Shown here one piece after another: positions 4,329 through 32,214 of a DNA stretch of 34,379 nucleotides. Positions within the stretch are counted from its first letter, which is position 1, and the number at the start of each line of letters is the position of its first letter. The translations under genes and the position numbers were made by a program. The DNA lies in the IMG/VR virus record IMGVR_UViG_2734482779_000009, one strand, 5' to 3'. Source of the stretch: a virus (taxonomy: Duplodnaviria; Heunggongvirae; Uroviricota; Caudoviricetes). The notes beneath the pieces were generated by a model. That model was not told where the DNA came from, did not search any database, and was given only the letters and a program-made list of their open reading frames with translations.

Positions 4329-4859
4329 TTACTGCACATCCTGCTCAAAAGGAATTATTGAAAAATCCTCAATATCACTTTTTATGGTAATGCCGGGAAT
4401 ATTTTTCACGGCCTCTTTTTCATTCAGAATGGCATCTTTATTTATTTCCTCTTTTACACGAATAAAGCGCTCAAGCCCCAGACGTCTCAGTAGTTCAATA
4501 ACATTATCCGCTCCACGGATACTGACTGATGGCGGACGGTTTCGCCATTGCACCTCGCCGGTGGTGAGGTTAGCGAACTTCACCTTCCCGTTGCCGGTCA
4601 GTTCATCACGGTGTGCCTCACACCATGTCTGGATACCGGACTGCAGTTCTGACATGCGTTTTTTCAGGCTCTCGGTGAGCGGGGCATAACGTGCGGTGAT
4701 ATCGCCAATGGCGTCATTCATTTCTGTTTCAGCCCTGACCAGTTCACGTTGTGCGTCACCGAGCAGTCTGATGCCCTCAATGACCTCTTCGCGTGTCCCC
4801 GGTACCCAGAGTGCCGCTGCGGACTTGATACGTTTTGCCCCTTTTGTACTTTTTGCCAT
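4329..4859 (-). CDS. gam: Host-nuclease inhibitor protein Gam (Mu Gam family)
   Basis: 176 aa; close to Mu Gam as recalled (AKRIKSAAA..., ETEMNDAI, WCEA.RDELT..GKVK.ANL.TG.V.WR.RPPSVSIRG, GITVKSGIEDFSIIPFEQ). Confidence 0.85.
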   Translation of the reverse strand: MAKSTKGAKRIKSAAALWVPGTREEVIEGIRLLGDAQRELVRAETEMNDAIGDITARYAPLTESLKKRMSELQSGIQTWCEAHRDELTGNGKVKFANLTTGEVQWRNRPPSVSIRGADNVIELLRRLGLERFIRVKEEINKDAILNEKEAVKNIPGITIKSDIEDFSIIPFEQDVQ

Positions 4860-5158: not shown

Positions 5159-6352
5159 TTAAACCCCTTTGACAACGTCAGCGTTGACCTGTGGAACCCC
5201 GATTTCAGCGGCCAGATTCATGGCGGCTATTACCAGGTTACTGACGGCCAGCGGATACAGCAGGCTGACCCTGTTTTTACGATGACTTCCCGGATTGCTC
5301 AGGCGGGCACGTATGGCATCCACTGCGCCGGCGTCCATAATGTCCGTCAGTTGTTTACCGGCCCGTTGCAGTTTGAACGTCAGAAACTCTTCAAGGTTAT
5401 TGTCGAGAGGCAGAAGTTCGACCACCTCACAGCGCTGAACGACTTCACGGACTTCCATATTGCGTTCAGACAGTTTTGTCGCCAGTTCCGGCTGGCCAAT
5501 CAGCACGATGGACAGCAGTTTTTTGAAACCGGACTCCAGCTCAAAAAAGCGTTTGAGGTGTTTCAGTGTCGGAACGGGCAGACTGTGGGCTTCCTCAATC
5601 ACCAGAACGTGGCTGAACCCCGCCTGGCTGCTGTCTTTCAGGACGCGATGCAGCTGGCGAAAGCGGGCGTCCTGACTGCGTCTGATGCTTTCCAGTGGTG
5701 CGATGGTACTGATAATGGCTTCGGCAATCGCTGCTGCCTTCAGGGTTTTCCCTTTCACATCGTTGTCTTCCATGGCGATGACGTATGGCTCGATAATAAT
5801 TACCGGCGCATTCTCGCGGTTGATACGTTCAGTCAGGTCACGGCGCAGCGTGGATTTACCCGCACCGGACTCACCGATGACAGCCATAAACCCGCCATGA
5901 CGGGCTGTCTGGTACAGCGCCTCACGCACGTAGCGAATGTCCGGGGTGGTGAACACATCATCAGAACCCTGCATGGCTTCGTCGGCGAACGGGTCACGGA
6001 AAAGACCAAACGCTTTTTTGGTTGCTGGAAATAACACCTGTTTTTTGAGTAACATATTCTCTTCCTCACTGAGGCTCGTTTTATCTGTGGTACCCGCTGT
6101 ACGGGGCGTGGCCGCGCCCTGTACAGCATCAAAACTCTTCGCTGTATCAATCCCCTGACTTTCCAGCCAGGACGCAAGACGCCGGCGCACTTCTCCGGGG
6201 CTGGTGCGGGGCCACGCGTTATGATTCACAATCTGGGCCAGCGTGGCCTCAGAAACATCGACAGCTCTCGCCACCACCGCCTGTGGAATACGGGCCTCTT
6301 TCAGTTGCTGCTTCAGTACCAGCATGTTTCCCTCCTTAGTTGCCGTTAACAA
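5159..6352 (-). CDS. B: DNA transposition protein B (AAA+ ATPase, Mu B-like)
   Basis: 397 aa; N-terminal HTH-like region; Walker A GESGAGKST; Walker B-like HVLVIEEAH; overlaps the 3' end of A by 17 nt. Confidence 0.85.
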   Translation of the reverse strand: MLTATKEGNMLVLKQQLKEARIPQAVVARAVDVSEATLAQIVNHNAWPRTSPGEVRRRLASWLESQGIDTAKSFDAVQGAATPRTAGTTDKTSLSEEENMLLKKQVLFPATKKAFGLFRDPFADEAMQGSDDVFTTPDIRYVREALYQTARHGGFMAVIGESGAGKSTLRRDLTERINRENAPVIIIEPYVIAMEDNDVKGKTLKAAAIAEAIISTIAPLESIRRSQDARFRQLHRVLKDSSQAGFSHVLVIEEAHSLPVPTLKHLKRFFELESGFKKLLSIVLIGQPELATKLSERNMEVREVVQRCEVVELLPLDNNLEEFLTFKLQRAGKQLTDIMDAGAVDAIRARLSNPGSHRKNRVSLLYPLAVSNLVIAAMNLAAEIGVPQVNADVVKGV

Positions 6353-8105
6353 TGCTGATAACGCTGCTGCGGGCCGGCGTGGTCAGCGTGGCCATGACTT
6401 CATCCAGTGCGGCTTCCGGTACGCCGTCCGGATACTGTGCCGTTAACTGGCGGTAATGTTCCGGCGTCCAGGTAAGGCCGTTGGCGCTGAACTTCCCGCG
6501 CAGGGCTTTCGCGGCCTCCACATGAGTCATGGGACGCTGTTCAGTGCGCGGTCCGCGTACGTCAGAGGCCTGACCTCGCTTCGGTATACAGGCCGGAAGT
6601 GTGGCGTCATCAATATGTTTATACGGGTCAAGCCGCCCGCCGAACGGCAGCGCCTTCGCCTTGCGTGCGGCAGCTGCATCTGCGGCGTTGTCTGTACCGG
6701 TGACCAGCGCTTCGGTTTCTTTTGCCGCCATCTGCGCCGGGGTTTCCGGCAGGGCTTTGTAACTTTCGCCAAATACCGCCGCGCCTTCAGCAAAGCCAAA
6801 CTCGTTCTTTCTGACCTCTTCGACCAGGAAGAACGTCTCGTGGCCGTCCTCACCGGTCAGAACCACCTGTGCCACATCGCTGCGCCACGGGTTACGGGTA
6901 ATCATCAGTTTTTCACCGACCAGTACGCCCGGTACCGTTGATACGTCAAATTCAGTGCCCCGGAACGAGACACGAAGTTTTGGCGTGACTTTGCGGAGTT
7001 CTGGTGCTGCCACAGCCAGTTCACGGCATACCTCAACGGAAGGCGCTTTTTTCAGCTGCTCAGCAGTAATCTTCAGCCAGATATCCGTGCGGGTTTTACC
7101 GTGGCGGCTGTGAACAGCTGTTGCGTTAAAGTGGCTGCGCCATTTCGCGGCCAGCGCGTTGAGTTCTTCCAGACTGTGAACCGGCCGGAACTTCAGACCC
7201 GGCTCCAGCTTGCGTTCGATAATGTCTCGCGCCTTTTCCACCTGTCCGGTGGCGCGGGCGTTATGCGGCTTGTGCGCTATCAGGTCGATGCCCAGTGAGC
7301 GGCACATGTTTTTCGTCATACCCGCGGTGTTTGCCGAGCCGGGGTCGAGATAGAGTATTTTCGGCACGCCGTGCAGCACGTCTGCGCCGCCACGCTCCTG
7401 CATGGCATTGATAAGCACAGAACACAGGTTCTCACCGGATTCCGCACCCGTCACATACTCAACGTAAATCCAGCCGCTGGCATGGTCGGTAATCTCGTAA
7501 CTCCACACGCGGTCACTGGCGATACGGGCAAGGTTAGCGGGCTTGTTCTTGTAGAATTTCGCGCTGTCCATCACCTGCAGCCCTTTATGTCCATTGCTCA
7601 GGTAGTAAAGCGTGCAGAGTGAGGCGTCAATCTGCCAGACATGATTGGGATGCAGACTGGCCACTTCGGTATGTGGTGCAGGGGCATCCAGTTGTTCCGG
7701 GTGCAGGCCATAGTTACGCAGGGCGCGACTGATGGCATCTTCGGACAACGGGAAAAACTCACCGGTGGTTTCATCTGTTCTGCCTGCGGAGATAAAGCCG
7801 TTAGCCCGCAGGGTTTCCACTGCATCCGCGATGGAATAGAGACGCTTACCGTTCTTGCGGGTGGCCTCACGTAGTGTGGCAGATATCAGCGCGGCTTCGT
7901 CGCGGGTCAGGGCGCTGCGCCCGGCATCGGCGCGTTTTTTGCGTTTATCAGTCACAGATACCTCCTTCAGCCTGCGCAGCAGAGTGGCGCGGGACATGCC
8001 AAGTTCAGCACAGGCAGCGTCGTATATTGCACCGCGTTTACCATGCCCCGCGTCACGTGCCGCGCGGGCTGTTTCAACCAGTTTTTCAGTCAGTGCCGGG
8101 GTCAT
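6336..8105 (-). CDS. A: DDE transposase A (Mu-like / B3-D3112-type, integrase-core fold)
   Basis: 589 aa; N-terminal HTH (GMSRATLLRRLKE); catalytic-core motifs WQIDAS and YLDPGSANTAG; followed by B. Confidence 0.85.
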   Translation of the reverse strand: MTPALTEKLVETARAARDAGHGKRGAIYDAACAELGMSRATLLRRLKEVSVTDKRKKRADAGRSALTRDEAALISATLREATRKNGKRLYSIADAVETLRANGFISAGRTDETTGEFFPLSEDAISRALRNYGLHPEQLDAPAPHTEVASLHPNHVWQIDASLCTLYYLSNGHKGLQVMDSAKFYKNKPANLARIASDRVWSYEITDHASGWIYVEYVTGAESGENLCSVLINAMQERGGADVLHGVPKILYLDPGSANTAGMTKNMCRSLGIDLIAHKPHNARATGQVEKARDIIERKLEPGLKFRPVHSLEELNALAAKWRSHFNATAVHSRHGKTRTDIWLKITAEQLKKAPSVEVCRELAVAAPELRKVTPKLRVSFRGTEFDVSTVPGVLVGEKLMITRNPWRSDVAQVVLTGEDGHETFFLVEEVRKNEFGFAEGAAVFGESYKALPETPAQMAAKETEALVTGTDNAADAAAARKAKALPFGGRLDPYKHIDDATLPACIPKRGQASDVRGPRTEQRPMTHVEAAKALRGKFSANGLTWTPEHYRQLTAQYPDGVPEAALDEVMATLTTPARSSVISIVNGN

Positions 8106-8438: not shown

Positions 8439-9355
8439 TAACGTATGCCCTCCGGTCGGTTGATTTCAGGCTCCGGTTCGGTCAGCCAGGCGGGGACATC
8501 GTTACCCGATGGTGCGGCATCAAGGTCAAACGTCTCACGCAATGCATGAACACTGCGTTCAATCTGGCAGACCAGACCGGCCATGAAATCTCTGGGGGTA
8601 TCAATCATGTGTTCAGCACAATATGCGCACAGCGTCTCAAACGCGCCGGACAGCCGGACGGCGATGGCAGATTCCGCCTCAACCGCTAATGCCGTCACTT
8701 CCGCCCGCAATTTTTTCAGTTCTTCGTCTGGCGGCGGAGGTTGCAGGCGCGATTTCTTCTCCAGTTTTGTGGCCAGTTCGTTGATTTTTTCGTCCTTTCC
8801 GGCAAGCACCTGTTGCTGAGCTGCGTTGGTTTCGCGCGCTTCACGCAGGGCCTGGCGAAGTTCGCGGCTGGTCATGCGATCAATATCGTCGAGAGTCATT
8901 CCAGCAACCGTGCCGCCGTCAGCCAGTTCGGCAAGATCTTCGTCATCTTCCGTCATTAACTCAAAAAGTTTGGTTTTCCCCAAATGTGCCAGCGCTGGCA
9001 CATTTGGTTTCAGCGTCGGGGATAAGTATTTTGTCGATGCCTGCATCATTCGCACAGATGTCCGGTACGCCAGCCCCAACTCACCTTCAAGAATCTTTAT
9101 AAACTCCCCATGCGGCTCATTTTCCTTAAGAAGGATCAATCGTTTACCGGCTTCCAGCATTGCTTCCGCGCTCTGCGCCATATAAAAGCGTGCCTCATGA
9201 ACAACACGATCGCGCTCATAGGGCAGGCCATCACCGAACAGTTGCATGATCTCCGTGCTGTGTTGTGTCATGGCGTTCAGACTGACATTGAGATCATCCG
9301 ACAGGGGGACCTCGGCGTTCAGTTCAGTGTTAACCAGTGATTTAGTGCGTCCCAT
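8438..9355 (-). CDS. DUF3102-like phage protein (305 aa), conserved upstream of A in B3/BcepMu-like phages
   Basis: Position and general sequence character match the DUF3102 proteins of transposable phages as recalled; acidic/coiled-coil central region. Confidence 0.5.
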   Translation of the reverse strand: MGRTKSLVNTELNAEVPLSDDLNVSLNAMTQHSTEIMQLFGDGLPYERDRVVHEARFYMAQSAEAMLEAGKRLILLKENEPHGEFIKILEGELGLAYRTSVRMMQASTKYLSPTLKPNVPALAHLGKTKLFELMTEDDEDLAELADGGTVAGMTLDDIDRMTSRELRQALREARETNAAQQQVLAGKDEKINELATKLEKKSRLQPPPPDEELKKLRAEVTALAVEAESAIAVRLSGAFETLCAYCAEHMIDTPRDFMAGLVCQIERSVHALRETFDLDAAPSGNDVPAWLTEPEPEINRPEGIR

Positions 9356-9365
9356 TGATTACTCC

Positions 9366-9680
9366 TTACAAACGACTACCTGAAATAACTCGCTGGTTGA
9401 TTTCGTTAATACGATCCTGTGCACGTGCCATCTCGTTACTGTGGGCCATAGCGATCTGCAGTAACTGGATGCCCGGCGCGAAACGCCCGTTTTCCAGTTT
9501 CAGGGCCAACCCTTCTTCAATGAGGGTGTTGAGTGCCCGGTTGATGTTTGCCGGTGACTCGTGCAGTGCTGCCGCCAGTTCACCGTTGGAAATACCGTTC
9601 AGGGCATGACCACGCAGCGCTTTCAGTACCCGGAGGATGCGACTGCCGGAGCTTGAAACATTCGTCTTACTCATCTGCAT
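9366..9680 (-). CDS. Winged-helix DNA-binding protein (IclR/MarR-like HTH), probable early regulator
   Basis: 104 aa; RILRVLKALRG...GISNGELAAALHESPANINRALNTLIEEGLA resembles a wHTH recognition module. Confidence 0.5.
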   Translation of the reverse strand: MQMSKTNVSSSGSRILRVLKALRGHALNGISNGELAAALHESPANINRALNTLIEEGLALKLENGRFAPGIQLLQIAMAHSNEMARAQDRINEINQRVISGSRL

Positions 9681-9726
9681 ACCTATTTTTCAATATGTGA
9701 TAATCTTTTTCGTATGCTGTATCTTT

Positions 9727-9915
9727 TTAAGCGGCGTCAGTGATGGTTTTTAATCCCAGCTTTACAGCGATTTCATGGGCTTTGCCATAGTTCGCTTTTA
9801 CCTGGCCATTCAGTACGCGGTAAACCTCCGCTCTGGTGTAGTTGTTCTGTTTTGCCCACTGGGTAAAAGTGATCCCATTGCGACGGAAATGAGCTTTGAC
9901 CTGGTCTGCAGTCAT
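9727..9915 (-). CDS. Ner/Nlp-like small HTH DNA-binding protein (62 aa); first gene of the early operon
   Basis: Pattern RRNGIT...A......T.AEVYRVLNG...KA.EIA.KLGL resembles Ner/Nlp-family proteins; GGAGACA RBS; divergent from the repressor gene. Confidence 0.55.
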   Translation of the reverse strand: MTADQVKAHFRRNGITFTQWAKQNNYTRAEVYRVLNGQVKANYGKAHEIAVKLGLKTITDAA

Positions 9916-9967
9916 TGTTGTCTCCTTGTTTGGTGCAATGATGTTTGCGTTATGTGTGATAGATTAT

Positions 9968-9985
9968 TGTCTAAAAATTTAGACA
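9968..9985. promoter_or_regulatory. Candidate operator: inverted repeat TGTCTAAA-AA-TTTAGACA in the divergent repressor/early promoter region
   Basis: 8-bp perfect half-sites with a 2-bp spacer, 12 nt upstream of the repressor ATG, in the 81-bp gap between divergent genes. Confidence 0.45.
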
Positions 9986-9996
9986 GAGCAAGTTTT

Positions 9997-10350
9997 ATGT
10001 CCATTAATTTAGAAAAAATACATGCGCGTCTCATTTCAGAATTAAAACGTGTTGGTCCTTTGGCGGTATCTAAGTCCACTGGTATCTCGCGGGCGACGAT
10101 TTATAACTGGATGGAAAAAGGAAATATCCCGCTAGATAAACTGGTAGTTTTAGGAGCAGCAGGAGTAGATGTTGCCTTCATTCTTACGGGTATGAGCACA
10201 GATGGTGAGGTGGAAATTCAGAACCGGATATCCCCCGAAAAACAAAAATTAATAGATACTTTTGACGACATGACACCAGAGCAACAACGCTCATTTCTTG
10301 AGATTGGGCGATTCTATACTCAGCCAAAACCAGGAAAAATCGCAGGCTGA
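9997..10350 (+). CDS. XRE-family HTH repressor (candidate lysogeny repressor, c-like)
   Basis: 117 aa from the ATG at 9997 (the ORF-track start at 9775 is an upstream artefact); HTH STGISRATIYNWMEKGNIPLDKLVVLGAAGVDVAFILTG; divergent from the early operon. Confidence 0.65.
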   Translation: MSINLEKIHARLISELKRVGPLAVSKSTGISRATIYNWMEKGNIPLDKLVVLGAAGVDVAFILTGMSTDGEVEIQNRISPEKQKLIDTFDDMTPEQQRSFLEIGRFYTQPKPGKIAG

Positions 10351-10436
10351 TTCTGACCTGGACACAAAGGACAGGTGGTTGATCTGGACGCTTTCAGAAA
10401 GCGCCGTCAGTAGCATGGCAGGAATGGGCTGATTTA

Positions 10437-10468
10437 CCGGAAAGCATTGTGCTTTCCGGTTTTGTTTC
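10437..10468 (+). terminator. Candidate rho-independent terminator downstream of the repressor gene, possibly bidirectional
   Basis: Stem CCGGAAAGC (10437-10445) / GCTTTCCGG (10451-10459), loop ATTGT, followed by TTTTGTTTC; sits between the convergent repressor and dam genes. Confidence 0.55.
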
Positions 10469-11231
10469 AGAAGTTGCAGATTACCAGTTCACGGCGCGGC
10501 GTGGGTTTCCCCGCCAGACTGTAGTTGATATTCACCGTCTGTATGTTCAGTTCAGTGAACACCCGACGCATCTGCGGAATGTCGTTCACCGAGATAATCA
10601 TCTTTCCTCTGATGCACCGGGCCAGTTCTGCGAGTAGTGTGTAGTTCTCTTCAGGAAAATCCACACCATAGCCTTCCGTCCCCAGATAGGGCGGATCACA
10701 GTAGAACAACGTGTGCGGACGGTCATAACGCTTAATGCACTGGTGCCAGTCCATGTGCTCTATCACCGTTCTGGAAAGCCGCAGGTGTGCCGCTGACAGT
10801 TCTTCTTCAATACGTAGCAGGTTGAAGCGTGGCGGAGATGTGGTGGATGTGCCGAAGCTGTGCTCTGCCACCTTGCCACCAAATGCCTGCTTCTGGAGGT
10901 AGTAGAACCGTGCCGCACGCTGGATATCCGTCAGTGTTTCTTCCGGGGTGATCTGCAGCCATTTGTAGATCTGCCGGCTAACCAGCGCCCATTTGAACTG
11001 GCGGATAAATTCTTCCAGGTGATGTTTTACCACCCGGTACAGATTCACCAGTTCACCATTGATATCGTTAATGACTTCGAGCTTGCCGGGAGTCTTGAGA
11101 AAATAGAGCGCAGCTGCGCCGCAGAACGGCTCCACATAACATTCATGCGCAGGAAACAGCGGCAGGATGTGTTTTGCCAGGCGGCGTTTGCCACCAATCC
11201 ATGGAACGATGGGTAATGTCTGCGTTTTCAT
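10467..11231 (-). CDS. dam: Dam-family N6-adenine DNA methyltransferase (orphan, phage-borne)
   Basis: 254 aa; WIGGK, FCGAAALYF (motif I) and catalytic DPPY (FYCDPPY) in the Dam order; no cognate restriction gene adjacent. Confidence 0.85.
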   Translation of the reverse strand: MKTQTLPIVPWIGGKRRLAKHILPLFPAHECYVEPFCGAAALYFLKTPGKLEVINDINGELVNLYRVVKHHLEEFIRQFKWALVSRQIYKWLQITPEETLTDIQRAARFYYLQKQAFGGKVAEHSFGTSTTSPPRFNLLRIEEELSAAHLRLSRTVIEHMDWHQCIKRYDRPHTLFYCDPPYLGTEGYGVDFPEENYTLLAELARCIRGKMIISVNDIPQMRRVFTELNIQTVNINYSLAGKPTPRRELVICNF

Positions 11232-11278
11232 AATCTGTAAGCCTTTTACAATTATTAAAAATATGGCAGGCTAGTCTG

Positions 11279-11290
11279 GTCTCGCGAGAC
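11279..11290. promoter_or_regulatory. Perfect 12-bp palindrome GTCTCGCGAGAC upstream of dam (candidate regulator binding site)
   Basis: Seen directly; about 48 bp upstream of the dam start codon; flanked by AGTC / GACT. Confidence 0.3.
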
Positions 11291-11336
11291 TGACTGAACC
11301 TTGGTCGGCTCACAGTGCATTCCTGTGGGACGATGG

Positions 11337-11377
11337 CCAGCCCGGCTTTCGGGTGCCGGGCTGGTCGTTCTTTCATG
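11337..11377. other. GC-rich stem-loop (10-bp stem) in the dam leader / intergenic region; possible plus-strand terminator or regulatory structure
   Basis: CCAGCCCGGC (11337-11346) pairs with GCCGGGCTGG (11355-11364), 8-nt loop, then TCGTTCTTTC on the plus strand; no T-run on the minus strand. Confidence 0.35.
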
Positions 11378-11420
11378 ATGCGGCAGGGATGAAGTGATTT
11401 CTGTTAATGTGGTTTAGGGA

Positions 11421-11636
11421 TTATCCGGGGCGATTTTCTGACCTTATCTGGTCCAGGGCATAAGTGATCCCTTCTGCAAAAACAGAAGTATCGAACTGCT
11501 TTTGTATTTCCTGAAAATGAACAGTGGCACGACAGATACTCAGTTCTCCGCGATGTAACCGGATAATATCTTCCAGAACATTGTTCACTGCTTCGGCACG
11601 GCGCTGATGTTCTGTTAACGTTAATCGGGGATTCAT
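11421..11636 (-). CDS. Hypothetical small protein (71 aa)
   Basis: Strong RBS AAGGAG 6-7 nt upstream of the ATG; no recognised motif; between the Walker A gene and dam. Confidence 0.55.
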   Translation of the reverse strand: MNPRLTLTEHQRRAEAVNNVLEDIIRLHRGELSICRATVHFQEIQKQFDTSVFAEGITYALDQIRSENRPG

Positions 11637-12014
11637 GATGCACTCCTTAAATGATGATTTTTATGTACTCACCGGCAAAATATTCTGCCGATTACTGAAC
11701 ACGCATCCGGCACCTCAGGTTTTGATTTATCTTGGTTTTTTCGATATCCCGGACTAGGTTGATCACGACCAGAAAAAGTGCCGGTATTTTATTGATACGC
11801 TGATATGGCTTCGGGATAACAGCTATATCCGTTACTCTCAGTTGCTGGCTGTGGGAGCGGCTGATGTCGTCCTCACGGAAAAAACGCTCTGTCTGCTCAA
11901 TGCCATGCCGACCTTTCTGCAGCCCCGGCCCGTACCATTTAAAGAGTCGCTTCTGGATGCAGTAAAAACCGGTGAAAATGCAGTCATCGCTGAATGCGTA
12001 TCCCGGATTATGAG

Positions 12015-12758
12015 TTACGTGTTTAATGAACGTAAGTGAGGTTTATCCGCTGTCTGCATAATTCCGATAGCCAGTGCGAGGGGAAGTAATTCCGGGGAAA
12101 CTTTTTCAAACAGCGATTCCCATTCTCCTCTCGCCATCACTCTGTCCAGCCCGCCCTCCAGCTGCATTTCAGCAATCTTCCTGATTTCCCGGAACAACGC
12201 CGCTTTGATCTCTTCATGCTCAGCTTTATTTTCCGGTGTCAGAATGTATTCGTCGAAGAACCGGGGAGACTGGTTAACGGGGATTGTGTTCACCGGGAGG
12301 TGTTCCTGCTTCCCGTACTTCGGGGCCGAAAAACATTCTGTTGGCTGACCGGTGAGTTTACGTAACTCCTTCATGAGCAGCTCCTGATCGTAAACTGTCA
12401 TCAGTGCCGCAATGGTGGCATGCAGTGCATCGGGTAGTATCCAGGGTTGCCGGCCCGTGGGGCATATAACATCCAGCAGCTCATTCGTCCGACAGATACG
12501 CTCCTCGCCGTATGACAACAGGCCCTGTCCCGTGTATTCCTCCAGCCTGATCACTGTGCCAGCCCGTGGTTTCTGCCATGTGCTCAGATCATCCCCGCTC
12601 ATACGGCGCTCATCGTCCACGTCTGCGGCATCGACAATGACGCTGCCTCCGAATTCCTGTTTTATCACCTCTTCTGTCCGCGCCAGTATGTAACTTTTAC
12701 CGCTGCCCACAGGACCGGACACGGTGACAGTGATGACCGGATTCAGTGTATGTGTCAT
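12015..12758 (-). CDS. Hypothetical protein with N-terminal Walker A / kinase-like P-loop (GPVGSGKS); function unknown
   Basis: 247 aa; Walker A at residues 15-22, then VIVDAADVDDE about 20 aa later (kinase-like acidic motif); C-terminal ~170 aa without recognisable motifs; transcribed divergently from the lysis/late operon. Confidence 0.6.
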   Translation of the reverse strand: MTHTLNPVITVTVSGPVGSGKSYILARTEEVIKQEFGGSVIVDAADVDDERRMSGDDLSTWQKPRAGTVIRLEEYTGQGLLSYGEERICRTNELLDVICPTGRQPWILPDALHATIAALMTVYDQELLMKELRKLTGQPTECFSAPKYGKQEHLPVNTIPVNQSPRFFDEYILTPENKAEHEEIKAALFREIRKIAEMQLEGGLDRVMARGEWESLFEKVSPELLPLALAIGIMQTADKPHLRSLNT

Positions 12759-12862
12759 GTTGCATTCTCCTCTGTGAATAATTCATCGTTTATCCTGCAC
12801 ATCCCGTATCCCCGGCTCTCTTAACGCGCTTTAAAATCCTTCGCGCCCCGTATTTGTGATGC

Positions 12863-12885
12863 TGTCTCCACCAGACAAGGAGACA
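12863..12885 (+). promoter_or_regulatory. Stem-loop overlapping the holin ribosome-binding site (possible translational control)
   Basis: TGTCTCC (12863-12869) / GGAGACA (12879-12885), 9-nt loop; the 3' arm contains the GGAG of the Shine-Dalgarno; ATG at 12889. Confidence 0.3.
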
Positions 12886-12888
12886 CAC

Positions 12889-13239
12889 ATGAAAAACCTG
12901 AAAAAATTCATTCCCCCTGTTAAAAAACCTCGCCTCAGCGGCTGGCTGCTGACCTCAGTGCTGCTGCTGGGCACCATCGCTCTGGTATCGCCACAGCAGT
13001 TGCCTGTTGTGATCTACAAGCTGGCACTCATCACGCTGGCAGCAGTGCTGGGTTACTGGCTTGACCGTTCGCTCTTCCCCAAAGCCCGTCCCGGTCAGTA
13101 CCTGAAACATGACGACAGGCTGATGGCTGATGGGCGTTTCCCTGTACAGACCGGCCTTCACCTGGTGTTTTCTGCTGCGTTAATCCGCCGTGCACTGATT
13201 GTTGCAGCGGTCTGTCTGGCCGTTGCAATGGGGCTTTAA
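12889..13239 (+). CDS. Holin-like membrane protein (three predicted TM helices), first gene of the lysis cassette
   Basis: 116 aa from the ATG at 12889 (RBS AAGGAGA); hydrophobic segments GWLLTSVLLLGTIALV, VVIYKLALITLAAVLGYWL and LVFSAALIRRALIVAAVCLAVAMGL; directly upstream of the endolysin. Confidence 0.5.
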   Translation: MKNLKKFIPPVKKPRLSGWLLTSVLLLGTIALVSPQQLPVVIYKLALITLAAVLGYWLDRSLFPKARPGQYLKHDDRLMADGRFPVQTGLHLVFSAALIRRALIVAAVCLAVAMGL

Positions 13240-13241
13240 TC

Positions 13242-13979
13242 ATGAACTGGCCGCAGATAACCTGGATTGTATGCATGTCCCTGAAGCTGGCGTTCGAAGC
13301 CTTTCGGGTCTTCATCAGAACCGAACGCCTGTCAGTCCGCGCCGGGACCTTTCTGGTTCATATGGCACGGGTATTCTTTGTCGCAATGTTGCTCTGGTGT
13401 GGCGGCTTTTTCAGTCAGGCATCCGCAGCACAGCCTCCGCGGGCTGCCCTGCAGTATCGCGATGATGTGATCCGTAATGCCCGGCTTGAATGGGGACTGT
13501 CTGCGCCGGTGGCTGATTTCGCTGCGCAACTGCATCAGGAAAGCGGCTGGCGACCTGATGCGGTCTCGCCGGCTGGTGCTCAGGGGCTGGCGCAGTTCAT
13601 GCCTGCCACTGCCGACTGGATAAGTCAGTTGATGCCGGGGCTTAACAGCCGTGAGCCGTTTAATCCGGCATGGGCTATCCGGGCGCTGGTCAGCTATGAC
13701 CGCTGGCTGTGGCAACGTGTCAGCGCCGCCAGCGACTGCGAGCGTATGGCCATGACGTTGTCGGGCTATAACGGTGGCCCGGGCTGGGTGCGCCGTGACC
13801 AGCGGCTCGCCGCACGTCTGGGGCTGGACAGTCAGCGCTGGTTCGGACATGTCGCCACGGTGAATGCCGGACGCAATGCTGCCAGCTGGCGGGAGAACCG
13901 CCAGTACCCGCAGCGTATTCTCTTCACGCTGGCACCGCGTTATCTGTCATGGGGAGGGGCAAGCTGTGTGGGGATATAA
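13242..13979 (+). CDS. Endolysin: lytic transglycosylase (SLT domain) with N-terminal signal or SAR sequence
   Basis: SLT signature AAQLHQESGWRPDAVSPAGAQGLAQFMPATA; internal ATG at 13362 gives MARVFFVAMLLWCGGFFSQASAA, a signal/SAR-like N-terminus, so the true start may be 13362. Confidence 0.8.
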   Translation: MNWPQITWIVCMSLKLAFEAFRVFIRTERLSVRAGTFLVHMARVFFVAMLLWCGGFFSQASAAQPPRAALQYRDDVIRNARLEWGLSAPVADFAAQLHQESGWRPDAVSPAGAQGLAQFMPATADWISQLMPGLNSREPFNPAWAIRALVSYDRWLWQRVSAASDCERMAMTLSGYNGGPGWVRRDQRLAARLGLDSQRWFGHVATVNAGRNAASWRENRQYPQRILFTLAPRYLSWGGASCVGI

Positions 13980-14915: not shown

Positions 14916-15226
14916 TGGTCGATATTACCCGGGTACGCCGCGAATCCCTGCGCTGGAGTCTGCTGGTTGCCCTGAACAAAACCCGCCCTTACACCGCCAG
15001 CGAGACGTTGCTGCTGGAAGTGTCCCGCGCCATCTACCCGGACACCACGCAACTGGAACTGCGCCGTGAGCTTGATTACCTGGCAGATCGCAAAATGGTG
15101 GAGCTGGAGAGGAGACCGTCCGGTGACTGGTTTGCCGATCTGAGTCGCCTTGGTGTGGATATTGTGGAATACACCGTGGAATGCGGCCCCGGTATTGCCC
15201 GCCCGGAAAAATACTGGAGTGAGTGA
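14915..15226 (+). CDS. Hypothetical late protein (103 aa)
   Basis: Stop-start overlap with the neighbouring gene; no recognised motif. Confidence 0.45.
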   Translation: MVDITRVRRESLRWSLLVALNKTRPYTASETLLLEVSRAIYPDTTQLELRRELDYLADRKMVELERRPSGDWFADLSRLGVDIVEYTVECGPGIARPEKYWSE

Positions 15227-15228
15227 TT

Positions 15229-15777
15229 ATGGGACGTCGCAGCAGTATTGATACTCTCCCGACAGAAGTACGCCGCTGGCTGGAGCGGGCGCTGACGGAG
15301 AATAACTTCAGTGGATATGCCCGACTGGAAGCCCTGCTGAAGGAGAAGGGATACGTCATCACCCGCTCTTCCCTGCAGCGGTTCGGCTACAAAATGGAGC
15401 GACAACTGGCCCGCATCCGCGCCGCCACCGAGGCTGCGCGTCTGATGGCGCAGGAAGCCGGTGACGAGGCGGACGATCGTTCTGCCGGGATGATGGCACT
15501 TATTCAGACCGAGATGCTGGATGTTCTGATGCGTCTGCAGGAAATCGGGGAAAGTGATGATCCTGCAAAACGCGCAAAACTGCTGGCCACTGCTTCGGAA
15601 AGTATAGCCACACTGGTCCGTGCTTCGGTGACCCACAAGCGATTCCGGGCCGAGGTGCTGGCAAAAATTGAGGCACGGATGAATGCTCTGGAAAAACAGG
15701 CGAAGTCCGGCGACACCCGCCTGAGTCTGGAAACCCTGAAGATGGTGCGGGAACAGATTTACGGGGTGATCTCATGA
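15229..15777 (+). CDS. Mu gp27-like protein (DUF3486), putative terminase small subunit
   Basis: HTH-like N-terminus (RRWLERALTENNFSGYARLEALLKEKGYVI) and coiled-coil C-terminus; immediately upstream of the large terminase. Confidence 0.55.
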   Translation: MGRRSSIDTLPTEVRRWLERALTENNFSGYARLEALLKEKGYVITRSSLQRFGYKMERQLARIRAATEAARLMAQEAGDEADDRSAGMMALIQTEMLDVLMRLQEIGESDDPAKRAKLLATASESIATLVRASVTHKRFRAEVLAKIEARMNALEKQAKSGDTRLSLETLKMVREQIYGVIS

Positions 15778-17090
15778 CAGCGGCCATTCAGCTGTATCCC
15801 TATCAGCAGTCGTGGTTTCTGGATCGTGCCCGTTTCAAGATTGGTATGTTTGCCCGCCAGACGGGCAAGACGTTCACCACCACGCTGGAACTGGTTGATG
15901 ACTGTTTTGAAACAGAGGCATCAGGGGGACGCACTCGCTGGGTGATCCTCTCGCGCGGGGAGCGTCAGGCAAAAGAAGCCATGGTGGAGGGGGTGAAAAA
16001 ACACTGCAGCGCCTACCGGATGGCGGCCCGTGAGGTGGAAAGTTATTACCGTGCTGAAAGCGGCGAACGCTACACCATGCTTGAGGTGGAGTTACCCGGT
16101 GGCTCCCGTATCACGGCCCTGCCGGCAAATCCCGACACGGCACGTGGGTTTGCGGCTAACGTCTTTCTGGATGAGTTCGCCTTCCATGCCGACAGTCGCA
16201 AAATCTGGACCGCCCTGTTTCCGGTCATTTCCAACGGCTACAGACTGCGTGTGACATCGACGCCGAACGGCAAGGGAAACAAGTTTTATGAACTGATGAC
16301 CAGCAACGCCCTTGAAAATGTCTGGTCACGTCACATCGTGGATATTTACCGTGCCGTGCGCGACGGCCTTCCGCGTGACATTGCACAGATGCGACAGGCG
16401 CTCAACGATGATGACGCCTGGGCACAGGAGTTTGAACTGAAGTGGCTGGATGAGGCATCGGCCTGGCTGACGTTTGAACTGATTGACGGCGTGGAGCACG
16501 ATGCTGCCGGGCTGCCGGTGCACTATACGGGTGGCCCCTGCTTTGTGGGGGTGGATATTGCTGTCCGTAATGACCTGTTTGTGATCTGGGTGCTTGAACA
16601 GGTGGGGGATGTCTACTGGACCCGGGAAATCATCACCCGGAAACGGGCCACCTTTGCTGAGCAGGATGCTTTGCTGGATGACGTATTTTTCCGTTATCGC
16701 GTGCTGCGCTGCTGTATGGATCAGACAGGAATGGGGGAAAAGCCTGTGGAAGATGCTCAGGAGCGCCACGGCAGGAGTCGTGTGGAGGGGGTGATATTTA
16801 ACAGCCCGAACAAGCTCACCCTCGCGACCCGTGGCAGGGAGATGTTTGAGGACCGCTGCCTGCGTATTCCGGCGGGAGATGTGGTACTGCGCAGTGATCT
16901 GCATAAACTCCGTAAGATCACCGGACCTACCGGAGCGCCTCGCTTTGTGGCGGAAAGTGATGCAGCAGGTCACGCCGACCGTACATGGGCCTGTTTTCTG
17001 GCTATTAACGCCACTGACGGACCGTCAGGGCCGGTGGTGGCGCGTTCACGCCGCCGCCGTGAAGCCGCCCGCATGCTGGAGGGATTCTGA
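15774..17090 (+). CDS. Terminase large subunit (Mu gp28-like)
   Basis: 438 aa; Walker A-like FARQTGKT near the N-terminus; acidic nuclease region; ATGA overlap with both neighbours. Confidence 0.8.
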   Translation: MTAAIQLYPYQQSWFLDRARFKIGMFARQTGKTFTTTLELVDDCFETEASGGRTRWVILSRGERQAKEAMVEGVKKHCSAYRMAAREVESYYRAESGERYTMLEVELPGGSRITALPANPDTARGFAANVFLDEFAFHADSRKIWTALFPVISNGYRLRVTSTPNGKGNKFYELMTSNALENVWSRHIVDIYRAVRDGLPRDIAQMRQALNDDDAWAQEFELKWLDEASAWLTFELIDGVEHDAAGLPVHYTGGPCFVGVDIAVRNDLFVIWVLEQVGDVYWTREIITRKRATFAEQDALLDDVFFRYRVLRCCMDQTGMGEKPVEDAQERHGRSRVEGVIFNSPNKLTLATRGREMFEDRCLRIPAGDVVLRSDLHKLRKITGPTGAPRFVAESDAAGHADRTWACFLAINATDGPSGPVVARSRRRREAARMLEGF

Positions 17091-25985: not shown

Positions 25986-26009
25986 AGGGGCTCCGGCCCC
26001 TTTCTTCTT
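25986..26009 (+). terminator. Candidate intrinsic terminator or attenuator between the tube gene region and the chaperone/tape-measure genes
   Basis: AGGGGC (25986-25991) / GCCCCT (25996-26001), loop TCCG, followed by TTTCTTCTT. Confidence 0.5.
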
Positions 26010-26077
26010 AATCTCCTTTAATATCCGTTGCGTCCACCGCCAGACATACTGCCCTGAACTTACACAGGAGCACGATC

Positions 26078-26413
26078 ATGTCACAGACCCAGCCAGATAC
26101 TTTTACGCTATCTTATCCTTTCACCACTGCTGCAGGTACCAGAATTGAACAGATTGAACTGAAACGCCTGACGGTCAAAGACCTGAAGCAGGTGCGCAAA
26201 ATCAGCAAAAACCCGGCAGACTGGGACGAACCGCTGATTGCCCGCAGTACCGGCCTTCTCCCGGAAGATCTTGACAATATGGATCTGGCTGATTACCTGC
26301 AGTTGCAGAAACGATTTCAGCTCATCACTGGGATGGGTGAGAGCAACGAAGGCGCTGACGCAGGCGCAGGGGCTGCTGGCAAGGTGGTTCAGGTTTCAGC
26401 CGGGGGAGATTGA
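26078..26413 (+). CDS. Tail assembly chaperone (lambda G / P2 E analogue)
   Basis: 111 aa; acidic; sits between tube and tape-measure genes; overlapped at its 3' end by an open alternative frame. Confidence 0.6.
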   Translation: MSQTQPDTFTLSYPFTTAAGTRIEQIELKRLTVKDLKQVRKISKNPADWDEPLIARSTGLLPEDLDNMDLADYLQLQKRFQLITGMGESNEGADAGAGAAGKVVQVSAGGD

Positions 26414-31810: not shown

Positions 31811-31866
31811 ACCTTCTTAAACGCCTTTAATATCGGCGCTTACTTCCCGGGGGCAATACTGCCTCC

Positions 31867-32214
31867 ATGAAAACGACCTCAGTATTCTGGCAACCAGCTC
31901 TGCAGGCTCCCGGCGAAATCGTCCGGGGGCTGGATGATATCCGGCAGTCCATCCAGATCATCCTGCGGACTCCCCGCGGCAGCGACCCGCATCGCCCGGA
32001 GTTCGGCAGCAATCTGCACCTTTATATCGACTGGCCTGTCGACCGGGCCATTCCGCATGTGGTTCGCGAATCCGTCGATGCCATCAGGCGCTGGGAACCC
32101 CGCTGCCAGCTTATGTCGGTTAAACCCGCCGTCGACGGCGAACATCTTACGCTCCGGGTGAGCTGGAAAGGCTCAGACGGACAACCCCGTACTCAGGAAC
32201 TGCTATGGCGCTGA
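31867..32214 (+). CDS. Baseplate protein W (gp25-like)
   Basis: 115 aa; size and position between the V and J genes. Confidence 0.7.
   Translation: MKTTSVFWQPALQAPGEIVRGLDDIRQSIQIILRTPRGSDPHRPEFGSNLHLYIDWPVDRAIPHVVRESVDAIRRWEPRCQLMSVKPAVDGEHLTLRVSWKGSDGQPRTQELLWR

What the first reader, a model, noticed from the sequence alone, without database searches (positions are those of the whole stretch)
12015..12758. Minimal kinase-like P-loop protein with an unassignable C-terminal domain
Walker A at residues 15-22 is followed within about 20 residues by an acidic hhhhDxxDxDD stretch, the arrangement in NMP/shikimate-type kinases rather than AAA+ or ABC ATPases, yet the remaining two thirds carry no lid or substrate motifs I can place. 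A phage-encoded kinase-like protein expressed opposite to the late operon could phosphorylate a nucleotide, an incoming phage component or a host target.
Basis: inference. Interest (0 to 1): 0.55.

Follow-up and report, generated by a model that had tools for sequence, protein, structure and literature searches.

The report
Phage mini P-loop protein, not kinase
The gene is an intact accessory gene of a Mu-like prophage whose only widely conserved part is a roughly 70-residue phosphate-binding ("P-loop") mini-domain that occurs in hundreds of phages, mostly as a tiny stand-alone protein; nothing supports a kinase, and its function is still unknown.

Summary
ORF 12015-12758 (-) encodes 247 aa with GPVGSGKS at residues 15-22 and VIVDAADVDD at 40-49. 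It is intact, under purifying selection (dN/dS 0.23), and present in 583 of 5,426 complete E. coli genomes.

The window is a BcepMu-like transposable prophage, and the gene sits divergent from the holin/SLT/Rz lysis cassette.

The kinase reading is not supported:
- An exhaustive HMMER search shows that only residues 1-76 are conserved. This is a mini P-loop module: strand, Walker A, helix, strand, E50, W61, strand ending in E74.
- Asp43, on which the kinase reading rests, is subgroup-specific.
- No lid or substrate motif is conserved, and no kinase profile reaches threshold.

The same module is the whole protein in most relatives (466 clusters; median 85 aa among those listed). It is also the C-terminal domain of an Ead/Ea22-like protein (hhalign 97.8%).

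Relatives lie in phage early, nin and DNA-metabolism regions, often near DNA methylases. A conserved dyad shared with the lysis promoter suggests expression during lytic growth.

Most likely this is an oligomeric nucleotide- or phosphate-binding accessory module. This is inferred, not shown.

The parts
12015..12758 (-). ORF247: complete 247-aa coding sequence (stop codon at 12015-12017)
   Evidence: full-length match to phrog_3787; dN/dS 0.23 among 8 alleles; present in 583 of 5,426 complete E. coli genomes
12531..12758 (-). Mini P-loop module, residues 1-76. This is the only part conserved across the family
   Evidence: All distant HMMER hits align to residues 1 to about 76. Alignments A1, A3 and A6. 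AF2 pLDDT above 90 for residues 11-70. hhalign against the Ea22-type modules gives 97.8% probability
12693..12716 (-). Walker A motif G15-P-V-G18-S-G20-K21-S22
   Evidence: Sequence read directly. G20 and K21 invariant; G15, G18 and S22 at least 90% conserved
12609..12611 (-). Codon of Glu50, in a recurrent E-R/K pair. Nearly invariant across the family
12537..12557 (-). Residues 68-74, TVIRLEE: a hydrophobic strand ending in Glu74, which resembles a Walker B motif (hhhhE)
   Evidence: E74 is at least 90% conserved in the 51-sequence alignment A3. The Walker B reading is inference
12354..12506 (-). Module M, residues 85-135. A helical module that sits at the C-terminus of some relatives instead (P0025, P0027, P0060)
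   Evidence: AF2 predicts helices at 83-98, 110-122 and 125-136 with low confidence
12018..12353 (-). Residues 136-247: a predicted disordered linker (138-173) followed by helices (175-236). Found only in the E. coli lineage
   Evidence: No significant match outside the close E. coli alleles. pLDDT about 30 for residues 141-170 and 66-77 for 181-220
12767..12772 (-). Shine-Dalgarno sequence GAGGAG, 8 nt upstream of the ATG
   Evidence: conserved GGAGGA block in relatives
12821..12834 (.). Dyad TTAACGCGCTTTAA between ORF247 and the holin gene. Probable binding site of the Mor/C-type activator
   Evidence: Invariant arms in divergent relatives. The same dyad followed by a -10-like element occurs three times in the window, always in an intergenic position before late genes. 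The Mor gene is at 1141-1527
12792..12797 (-). Candidate -10 element (CAGGAT) of a leftward ORF247 promoter. With this element the dyad centre falls at about -42.5
   Evidence: The block GCAGGAT is invariant, with fixed spacing, in L005, L027 and L030. It is absent upstream of the other two dyads. Its role as a promoter element is inferred
12858..12863 (+). Candidate -10 element (GATGCT) of the rightward lysis/late promoter, placed as a mirror image of the leftward one
11635..12039 (+). Convergent 134-aa gene (phrog_2266) that overlaps the 3' end of ORF247 by 25 nt. In this window it carries an in-frame TAG at codon 41

Best explanation
ORF247 is an intact accessory gene of a BcepMu-like (Bcepmuvirus) transposable prophage of E. 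coli. It is dispensable: some related prophages lack it.

The protein is a mosaic. Residues 1-76 form a mini P-loop module: strand, GPxGxGKS, helix, short strand, a helix carrying E50, W61, then a strand ending in E74. In most relatives this module is the entire protein (73-90 aa). In Ead/Ea22-like proteins it is the C-terminal domain. Residues 77-247 are lineage-specific helical add-ons.

The module is too small to be an autonomous kinase or a classical NTPase domain.

The most likely mechanism is inferred, not shown. The module would bind a nucleotide or another phosphorylated ligand through K21 and S22, with E50 and E74 as the acidic partners. It would work as a homo-oligomer. The helical tail would act as an oligomerisation or targeting adaptor.

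Expression is probably driven during lytic growth. The candidate leftward promoter shares the dyad of the Mor/C-type activator with the lysis operon, and transcription may read on into the 71-aa gene and the Dam methylase gene.

Its biological role is accessory. The gene neighbourhoods of relatives point to DNA metabolism or counter-defence rather than virion structure.
For: Anatomy (shown):
- The ORF and its motifs are as described.
- The phrog_3787 match is full length.
- An exhaustive HMMER search finds 51 representative clusters, and the distant ones among them align only to about residues 1-76, with unrelated C-termini.
- A6-based search finds 466 clusters. The 91 newly listed members have a median length of 85 aa and none exceeds 160 aa.
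- The stand-alone genes are tightly packed inside phage contigs, so they are not fragments.
- Conserved positions are G15, G18, G20, K21, S22, E50 and E74.
- The module is homologous to the C-terminal module of the phiV10 Ead/Ea22-like protein, to BcepC6B gp37 and to jumbo-phage proteins (hhalign 97.8%, E 6.9e-13, 65 columns).
- AF2 with a 51-sequence alignment gives pLDDT above 90 for residues 11-70 and a helical, poorly defined remainder.

Selection and prevalence: dN/dS is 0.23. The gene is in 583 of 5,426 genomes, and 483 of these have at least 80% of it.

Synteny: the gene is always the one divergent from the holin gene in BcepMu-like prophages, including Citrobacter. It is absent or truncated in some prophages.

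Regulation (inferred): the conserved dyad plus symmetric -10-like blocks, a Mor gene in the window, and no terminator-like site on the minus strand between ORF247 and the Dam gene.

Neighbourhoods of relatives:
- the Mu-like early region;
- between thyA and DHFR, with Dam and ribonucleotide reductase nearby;
- next to NAD-dependent ligase;
- among RecT, ERF, SSB and HNH genes;
- in lambdoid nin regions with Dam and C5 methylases;
- two genes away from an Acb2/Tad1-hairpin protein.
Against: - Nucleotide binding, oligomerisation and any activity are untested.
- Some members carry GKN instead of GKS (P0027, P0051, P0054).
- Natural 182-aa alleles lack residues of about 52-116, including W61 and E74. 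This argues that an intact module is not always required.
- The promoter assignment rests on sequence conservation and geometry only. The simple sigma-70 scan found no promoter there.
- The neighbourhood associations are qualitative (about 15 contexts), and such regions hold many unrelated genes.
Confidence: 0.5

Rival explanations
1. One reading: a minimal NMP/shikimate-type kinase that phosphorylates a nucleotide, a phage component or a host target.
For: - The Walker A motif is at the extreme N-terminus and is followed by an acidic strand in this allele.
- Weak P-loop-level hits include cytidylate, adenylate and deoxyguanosine kinases and PRK/uridine kinase. They cover only profile positions of about 4-50.
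- One lineage of stand-alone relatives sits between thyA and DHFR.
Against: - Asp43 is not conserved.
- The conserved region is only 65-75 aa, and most relatives are 73-90 aa in total.
- There is no conserved lid arginine and no conserved substrate motif. The C-termini are unrelated between members.
- No kinase Pfam model reaches its cut-off; for example AAA_18 scores 17.9 bits against a cut-off of 29.4, and APS_kinase scores 13.8 against 21.1.
- The fold searches find no kinase.
Confidence: 0.05
2. A prophage-encoded defence or superinfection-exclusion NTPase, that is, a moron expressed in the lysogen, whose variable C-terminus senses incoming phages.
For: - The repressor-to-holin interval is variable cargo in related prophages.
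- The C-terminal modules are highly mosaic, as expected in an arms race.
- There is a weak PADLOC hit to mad8 (E 0.012).
Against: - The PADLOC hit is not significant.
- Relatives occur in apparently virulent or very large phages and in early or DNA-metabolism regions, not only in prophages.
- The conserved promoter geometry points to activator-dependent lytic expression.
- The module lacks a complete NTPase core and any effector domain.
Confidence: 0.15
3. The P-loop has been repurposed. The module would be a small dimerisation or nucleic-acid (phosphate-backbone) binding domain without nucleotide turnover, and the protein would act as a structural adaptor or regulator. This is comparable to Ea22-type proteins, which affect the lysis-lysogeny decision.
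For: - The module replaces the dimeric C-terminal domain position in an Ead/Ea22-like protein. Ea22 is a tetramer with a dimeric C-terminal domain and favours lysogeny (PMC10834534, PMC7093339).
- The PDB profile search hits designed phosphate-loop mini-proteins (6c2u, 9jix).
- GKN variants and deletion alleles exist.
Against: The near-invariance of the full GxxGxGKS motif together with two acidic residues across about 20-50% identity is what a true Mg-nucleotide site would show. There is no DNA-binding motif and no evidence for one.
Confidence: 0.2
4. A decaying remnant of a larger ABC/KAP-type ATPase gene. RefSeq names truncated alleles 'ABC transporter ATPase' and 'KAP family NTPase'.
For: - RefSeq uses those names for the 141-158-aa and 80-92-aa alleles.
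- Many truncated alleles exist.
- The best sub-threshold profile hits are to ABC N-termini.
Against: - Full-length alleles are under purifying selection in all three segments.
- The PHROG match is end to end.
- There is no frameshift and no remnant downstream.
- The module is an independent gene in hundreds of phage clusters.
- Pfam ABC_tran and KAP_NTPase score below their cut-offs.
Confidence: 0.03

Closest known systems
N-terminal Walker A segment of ABC-type / AAA_21 / AAA_30 P-loop ATPases (Pfam PF00005, PF13304, PF13604)
   Same: Both have a GPxGxGKS loop after a hydrophobic strand, then a helix, then a 'G-x-h-x-h' strand. These are the best profile hits, although nearly all are below threshold.
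   Different: Only about 45-70 residues align. ORF247 has no Q-loop, no LSGGQ signature and no Walker B, D-loop or H-loop region. The conserved unit is 65-75 aa, against at least 200 aa for these ATPases.
NMP / shikimate-type small-molecule kinases
   Same: The Walker A motif is at the extreme N-terminus. In this allele an Asp-rich strand follows helix 1.
   Different: ORF247 has no lid, no NMP- or substrate-binding domain and no conserved Asp or Arg. No kinase profile reaches threshold, and the family core is less than half the size of a kinase core.
Ead/Ea22-like proteins of lambdoid and P22-like phages (Pfam PF13935), e.g. phiV10 p48
   Same: The C-terminal 70 residues of phiV10 p48 are homologous to the ORF247 module (hhalign 97.8%). 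Both are mosaic accessory phage proteins built from shuffled small modules.
   Different: ORF247 lacks the Ead_Ea22 domain, and its module is N-terminal. The solved C-terminal domain of lambda Ea22 is a different, non-P-loop domain (PMC10834534).
PHROG phrog_3787 (unknown function)
   Same: ORF247 matches the whole profile, and distant relatives match profile positions 1-75.
   Different: The PHROG carries no function. Its profile is built on the 242-aa E. coli architecture and hides the fact that only the first 75 positions are widely shared.
Designed phosphate-loop mini-proteins (PDB 6c2u; PL2x4_2, PDB 9jix)
   Same: They are similar in size and in the strand / P-loop / helix element, and they appear among the top PDB profile hits.
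   Different: They are engineered proteins. The similarity is confined to the P-loop element and implies no common descent or shared function.

Membership tests
NMP/shikimate-type kinases | N-terminal Walker A motif (GxxxxGK[ST]) | tested here: met
   GPVGSGKS at residues 15-22, conserved across the family
NMP/shikimate-type kinases | Complete alpha/beta core of about 150 aa or more with five parallel strands | tested here: not met
   Conservation ends at about residue 76. Most relatives are 73-90 aa. AF2 predicts only helices after residue 77.
NMP/shikimate-type kinases | Lid with conserved arginines, and a substrate-binding (NMP or shikimate) region | tested here: not met
   No conserved Arg or substrate motif appears in alignments A1, A3 or A6. 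The C-terminal parts are unrelated between members.
NMP/shikimate-type kinases | Conserved Asp after strand 2 that coordinates Mg or substrate | tested here: not met
   Asp43 is present only in the closest subgroup. Other members have I, E, G, T or V at that column.
NMP/shikimate-type kinases | Significant match to a kinase profile or to a solved kinase | tested here: not met
   Pfam, NCBIfam and PDB give only sub-threshold hits limited to the P-loop. No kinase appears in the fold searches.
NMP/shikimate-type kinases | Phosphotransfer activity | not testable with these tools
   Needs a biochemical assay
ABC-type ATPases | Walker A plus Q-loop, LSGGQ signature, Walker B/D-loop and H-loop | tested here: not met
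   Only the Walker A motif, helix 1 and the first strand align. ABC_tran scores 17-21 bits against a cut-off of 25. There is no signature motif in the sequence.
KAP family NTPases | Match to the KAP P-loop domain with its inserted transmembrane segments | tested here: not met
   PF07693 scores 12.8 bits against a cut-off of 20, at the P-loop only.
Ead/Ea22-like proteins (PF13935) | N-terminal Ead_Ea22 domain | tested here: not met
   ORF247 has no PF13935 hit. phiV10 p48 has the domain at residues 3-145. Only the mini P-loop module is shared.
phrog_3787 | Full-length match to the PHROG profile | tested here: met
   E 3.6e-162, residues 1-247 against profile positions 1-242 of 242
   ORF247 residues 1-76 carry every element. 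The profile finds 466 clusters. The profile-profile link to the Ea22-type modules has 97.8% probability.
   Needs binding assays, SEC-MALS or a structure.
Known anti-phage defence systems (PADLOC) | Significant match to a defence-system protein model | tested here: not met
   The only hit is mad8, E 0.012, 13.1 bits.

The most novel reading that the evidence does not exclude
The 65-75-residue module may be a naturally occurring, autonomous minimal P-loop domain, well below the size of any characterised P-loop NTPase. Phages would use it, alone or fused to adaptor helices, as a small oligomeric ligand binder. Two possible uses are a sponge for nucleotide-type immune signals or nucleotide pools, and a decoy that poisons ABC-type defence ATPases. 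ORF247 would be the late-expressed version in BcepMu-like prophages.
Probability: 0.15. Interest if true: 0.8.

Novelty: new variant of a known kind. Interest (0 to 1): 0.45.

Why it matters
The gene sits in a prophage carried by about one in ten complete E. coli genomes, including the extraintestinal isolate JJ1887 and the asymptomatic-bacteriuria strain 83972. RefSeq annotates it as 'hypothetical', or misnames truncated alleles as 'ABC transporter ATPase' and 'KAP family NTPase'.

Three things follow from recognising that its conserved core is a widespread, mostly stand-alone mini P-loop protein of phages:
- It corrects those annotations.
- It defines an uncurated family of hundreds of clusters, for which simple experiments are possible: ligand binding, a K21A mutant, and deletion in an inducible prophage.
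- It offers a possible natural counterpart to the designed minimal phosphate-loop proteins used to study the origin of P-loop enzymes.

If the module proves to be a counter-defence or nucleotide-sequestering factor, it would add a new protein class to the phage-host arms race.

Tried and rejected
- Curated-library searches with the full protein (Pfam, NCBIfam, PADLOC, PDB sequences) gave only sub-threshold P-loop noise.
- Single-sequence AF2 failed, with mean pLDDT 34.6.
- The 2,018-aa hit P0040 is an artefact. It sums about 18 repeats of 3-5 bits each from an Ig-repeat protein.
- The apparent similarity of the last 50 residues to the tails of P0029, P0031 and P0033 is not significant.
- Frameshift or fragment: rejected.
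- Rfam found nothing in 9300-13300.
- The simple sigma-70 scan found no promoter in the ORF247-holin spacer.
- Literature searches found no description of this module. The Ea22 papers do not mention a P-loop.

Full report
**1. What is in the sequence**

The ORF at 12015..12758 on the minus strand encodes 247 aa starting at an ATG. GAGGAG lies 8 nt upstream of the start.

Full-protein searches against Pfam, NCBIfam, PADLOC and PDB sequences give only sub-threshold hits confined to the P-loop:
- AAA_30 scores 15.9 bits against a cut-off of 27.
- KAP_NTPase scores 12.8 bits against a cut-off of 20.
- ABC transporter models and a designed ATPase also appear.

The protein matches PHROG phrog_3787 (unknown function) from end to end, with E 3.6e-162.

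**2. Genomic setting**

The window is a Mu-like transposable prophage of the BcepMu type.

On the minus strand, read from right to left, lie:
- a Ner-like HTH gene (9366-9680),
- a DUF3102 gene,
- an rve transposase (6336-8105),
- an AAA_22 B-like ATPase (5159-6352),
- Gam (4329-4859),
- GemA (1499-1948),
- Mor (1141-1527).

A repressor-like HTH gene lies on the plus strand at 9775-10350. From about 12860 rightward run the holin, the SLT endolysin, Rz and the head and tail genes.

The closest deposited phage is Escherichia phage PhiKM (Bcepmuvirus), whose homologue is 92% identical.

ORF247, a 71-aa gene (11421-11636) and a D12-class Dam methylase (10467-11231) point leftward. They end at a bidirectional terminator-like hairpin at 10436-10460.

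The ORF is found in 583 of 5,426 complete E. coli genomes. In 483 of them at least 80% of it is present, always on the chromosome. Carriers include JJ1887 and strain 83972.

In every BcepMu-like relative examined, including a Citrobacter braakii prophage, the homologue is the gene divergent from the holin.

The interval between repressor and holin is variable. Some prophages lack ORF247 or carry truncated forms, and some have other cargo downstream of the repressor.

**3. It is a real, selected gene and not a fragment**

Eight distinct full-length alleles give dN/dS of 0.23 overall. The three parts give 0.27 (residues 1-76), 0.15 (77-135) and 0.19 (136-247).

No part of any longer relative matches the window outside this reading frame.

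Many truncated alleles do exist, of 141, 158 and 80-92 aa. There is also a 182-aa form lacking about residues 52-116. The gene is therefore dispensable in nature.

**4. Only the first 76 or so residues are widely conserved**

An exhaustive HMMER scan of 1.84 billion representative proteins found 51 clusters. All the distant ones align to about residues 1-76 and then diverge into unrelated tails of different lengths.

The alignments show:
- G20 and K21 are invariant.
- G15, G18, S22, I28, G37 and E50 are at least 90% conserved.
- E74 is at least 90% conserved in the 51-sequence alignment.
- W61 is at least 90% conserved in the first set.

Other members have I, E, G, T or V there. The family-wide acidic positions are E50, usually followed by R or K, and E74, at the end of the hydrophobic stretch TVIRLEE. 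I read E74 as Walker-B-like; this is inference.

Residues 85-135 form a helical module that sits at the C-terminus of some relatives (P0025, P0027, P0060). Residues 136-247 are confined to the E. coli lineage.

**5. The module is mainly a stand-alone mini-protein**

A profile of 27 diverse modules retrieved 466 clusters. The 91 newly listed members have a median length of 85 aa. Fifty-six are 90 aa or shorter, and none exceeds 160 aa. None has a Pfam domain beyond P-loop-level hits.

These small genes are tightly packed inside long phage contigs, so they are genuine.

The same module also forms:
- the C-terminal 70 residues of the Ead/Ea22-like protein p48 of phage phiV10, where Pfam Ead_Ea22 covers only residues 3-145;
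- the N-terminal half of Burkholderia phage BcepC6B gp37;
- an internal segment of jumbo Ralstonia and Burkholderia phage proteins.

A profile-profile comparison of the two groups gives 97.8% probability and E 6.9e-13 over 65 columns.

Published work describes Ea22 proteins as mosaic, tetrameric, pro-lysogenic early proteins with variable C-terminal domains. It does not mention a P-loop (PMC10834534, PMC7093339, PMC8614690).

**6. Structure**

AF2 with the 51-sequence alignment gives the following:
- pLDDT above 90 for residues 11-70, with helices at 21-39 and 45-54;
- a low-confidence helical region at 83-136;
- a probably disordered linker at 138-173, with pLDDT about 30;
- helices at 175-236, with pLDDT of about 50-77.

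DSSP assigned no strands in the module. I cannot explain this. The strands may pair only in an oligomer.

The fold searches found nothing significant:
- Foldseek against PDB,
- Foldseek against BFVD.

The PDB profile search aligns only the strand, P-loop, helix and first strand. It does so with ABC nucleotide-binding domains, several kinases, UreG and two designed phosphate-loop proteins.

**7. Kinase test**

Of the features that define NMP- or shikimate-type kinases, only the Walker A motif is met. Core size, lid, substrate region, conserved Asp and profile match are all not met (see the membership table).

The nearest sub-threshold similarities are to the N-terminus of ABC-type and AAA_21/AAA_30 ATPases. 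The defining ABC motifs are absent too.

**8. Regulation (inferred)**

The 130-bp spacer between ORF247 and the holin ATG (12889) contains three blocks that are invariant in relatives whose proteins are only 40-55% identical:
- the dyad TTAAAG-NN-CTTTAA (12821-12834);
- GCAGGAT on the ORF247 side;
- ATGCTGTCTCC on the holin side.

The composite 'dyad, then 23-24 nt, then xAT(A/G)CTG' occurs exactly three times in the window: at 12821, 26008 and 31817. All three are on the plus strand and intergenic, each preceding a late gene block. The dyad alone gives four matches where 0.52 are expected by chance.

With the dyad centre at about -42.5, this resembles the activator sites of Mor/C-type proteins in phage Mu, which are centred near -43.5 (established knowledge). 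The window encodes one Mor-family protein.

At the first site, CAGGAT (12797-12792, minus strand) lies at the mirror-image distance, and it is absent upstream of the other two dyads. I therefore propose a divergent promoter for ORF247 that shares the activator site. That would mean lytic-cycle expression rather than lysogenic expression.

No terminator-like site separates ORF247 from the 71-aa and dam genes on the minus strand.

**9. Function**

Neighbourhoods of relatives are consistently non-structural:
- the Mu-like semi-essential early region;
- between thyA and DHFR, with Dam and ribonucleotide reductase nearby;
- next to NAD-dependent ligase;
- among RecT, YqaJ, ERF, SSB and HNH genes;
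- lambdoid nin regions with Dam and C5 methylases;
- beside N6/N4 and C5 methylases;
- two genes from an Acb2/Tad1-hairpin protein;
- near Lar and ParB-like genes.

This fits an accessory role in DNA metabolism or counter-defence, but it does not prove one.

My best mechanistic reading is a small oligomeric module that binds a nucleotide or phosphate ligand, with adaptor helices attached. The rivals are listed separately:
- a defence moron,
- a repurposed non-catalytic domain,
- a kinase,
- a decaying ABC/KAP remnant.

**10. Verdict**

The kinase interpretation is not supported. The gene belongs to an uncurated, widespread family of phage mini P-loop proteins and is an unusually long, mosaic member of it.

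This is a new variant of a known kind (the P-loop). Interest is moderate (0.45), because the function remains inferred.

Noticed in passing
window 12821-12864, 26008-26051, 31817-31861 (+): There are three copies of a composite motif: the dyad TTAAnnnnCTTTAA, then 23-24 nt, then xAT(A/G)CTG. Each is intergenic and precedes a late gene block (lysis; the gene at 26078; the gene at 31867). They are probably Mor/C-type activator-dependent late promoters. The third would put the transcript start at or next to the annotated ATG (31867).
   Followed up: partly
window 11635-12039 (+): A 134-aa gene (phrog_2266, unknown function) lies convergent with ORF247 and overlaps its 3' end by 25 nt. Its start is back to back with the 71-aa gene. 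In this window and in L006 it carries an in-frame TAG at codon 41. It is intact in JJ1887 (WP_000972294.1) and in 10 other loci, and mostly deleted in L015 and L018.
   Followed up: yes
window 12863-12885 (+): A 7-bp hairpin (UGUCUCC, 9-nt loop, GGAGACA) encloses the Shine-Dalgarno sequence of the holin gene (dG -10.5 kcal/mol, z -3.4). In L027 the outer pair is changed on both sides (GGUCUCC...GGAGACC). This may be translational control of the holin. The holin start is probably the ATG at 12889 (116 aa, as in RefSeq), not the GTG at 12856.
   Followed up: partly
L002 3294-4949; L004 3951-5612; L003 737-2952 (relatives of window 10350-12000): In related prophages the repressor is followed, on the same strand, by alternative two-gene cargo. 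One pair is 328 aa plus 193 aa (phrog_10002 and phrog_12025). The other is a nucleoid-associated protein plus a 401-aa protein (phrog_3767 and phrog_5023). The layout recalls cI-rexAB and may mark a defence-cargo hotspot of BcepMu-like prophages.
   Followed up: partly
window 10436-10460: An 11-bp-stem palindromic hairpin lies between the convergent repressor and Dam genes. It is a likely bidirectional terminator.
   Followed up: no
proteins P0011 and P0015 (alleles of window 12015-12758): Natural 182-aa alleles have two in-frame deletions, of about residues 52-86 and 96-124. The deletions remove W61, the E74 strand and most of module M but keep the Walker A motif and the C-terminal tail. P0011 is seen on 12 contigs, and the P0015 cluster has 58 member sequences.
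   Followed up: partly
relatives L006-L028 against window 15223-17090: The DUF3486 protein and the large terminase are only 24-48% identical in many otherwise 92-100% identical relatives. This points to mosaic replacement of the packaging module within this prophage group.
   Followed up: no
AF2 model of ORF247, residues 8-14, 39-43 and 67-73: These segments have the sequence pattern of beta-strands and lie in a region with pLDDT above 90, yet DSSP assigns no strand to them. This is unexplained. The strands may pair only between subunits.
   Followed up: no
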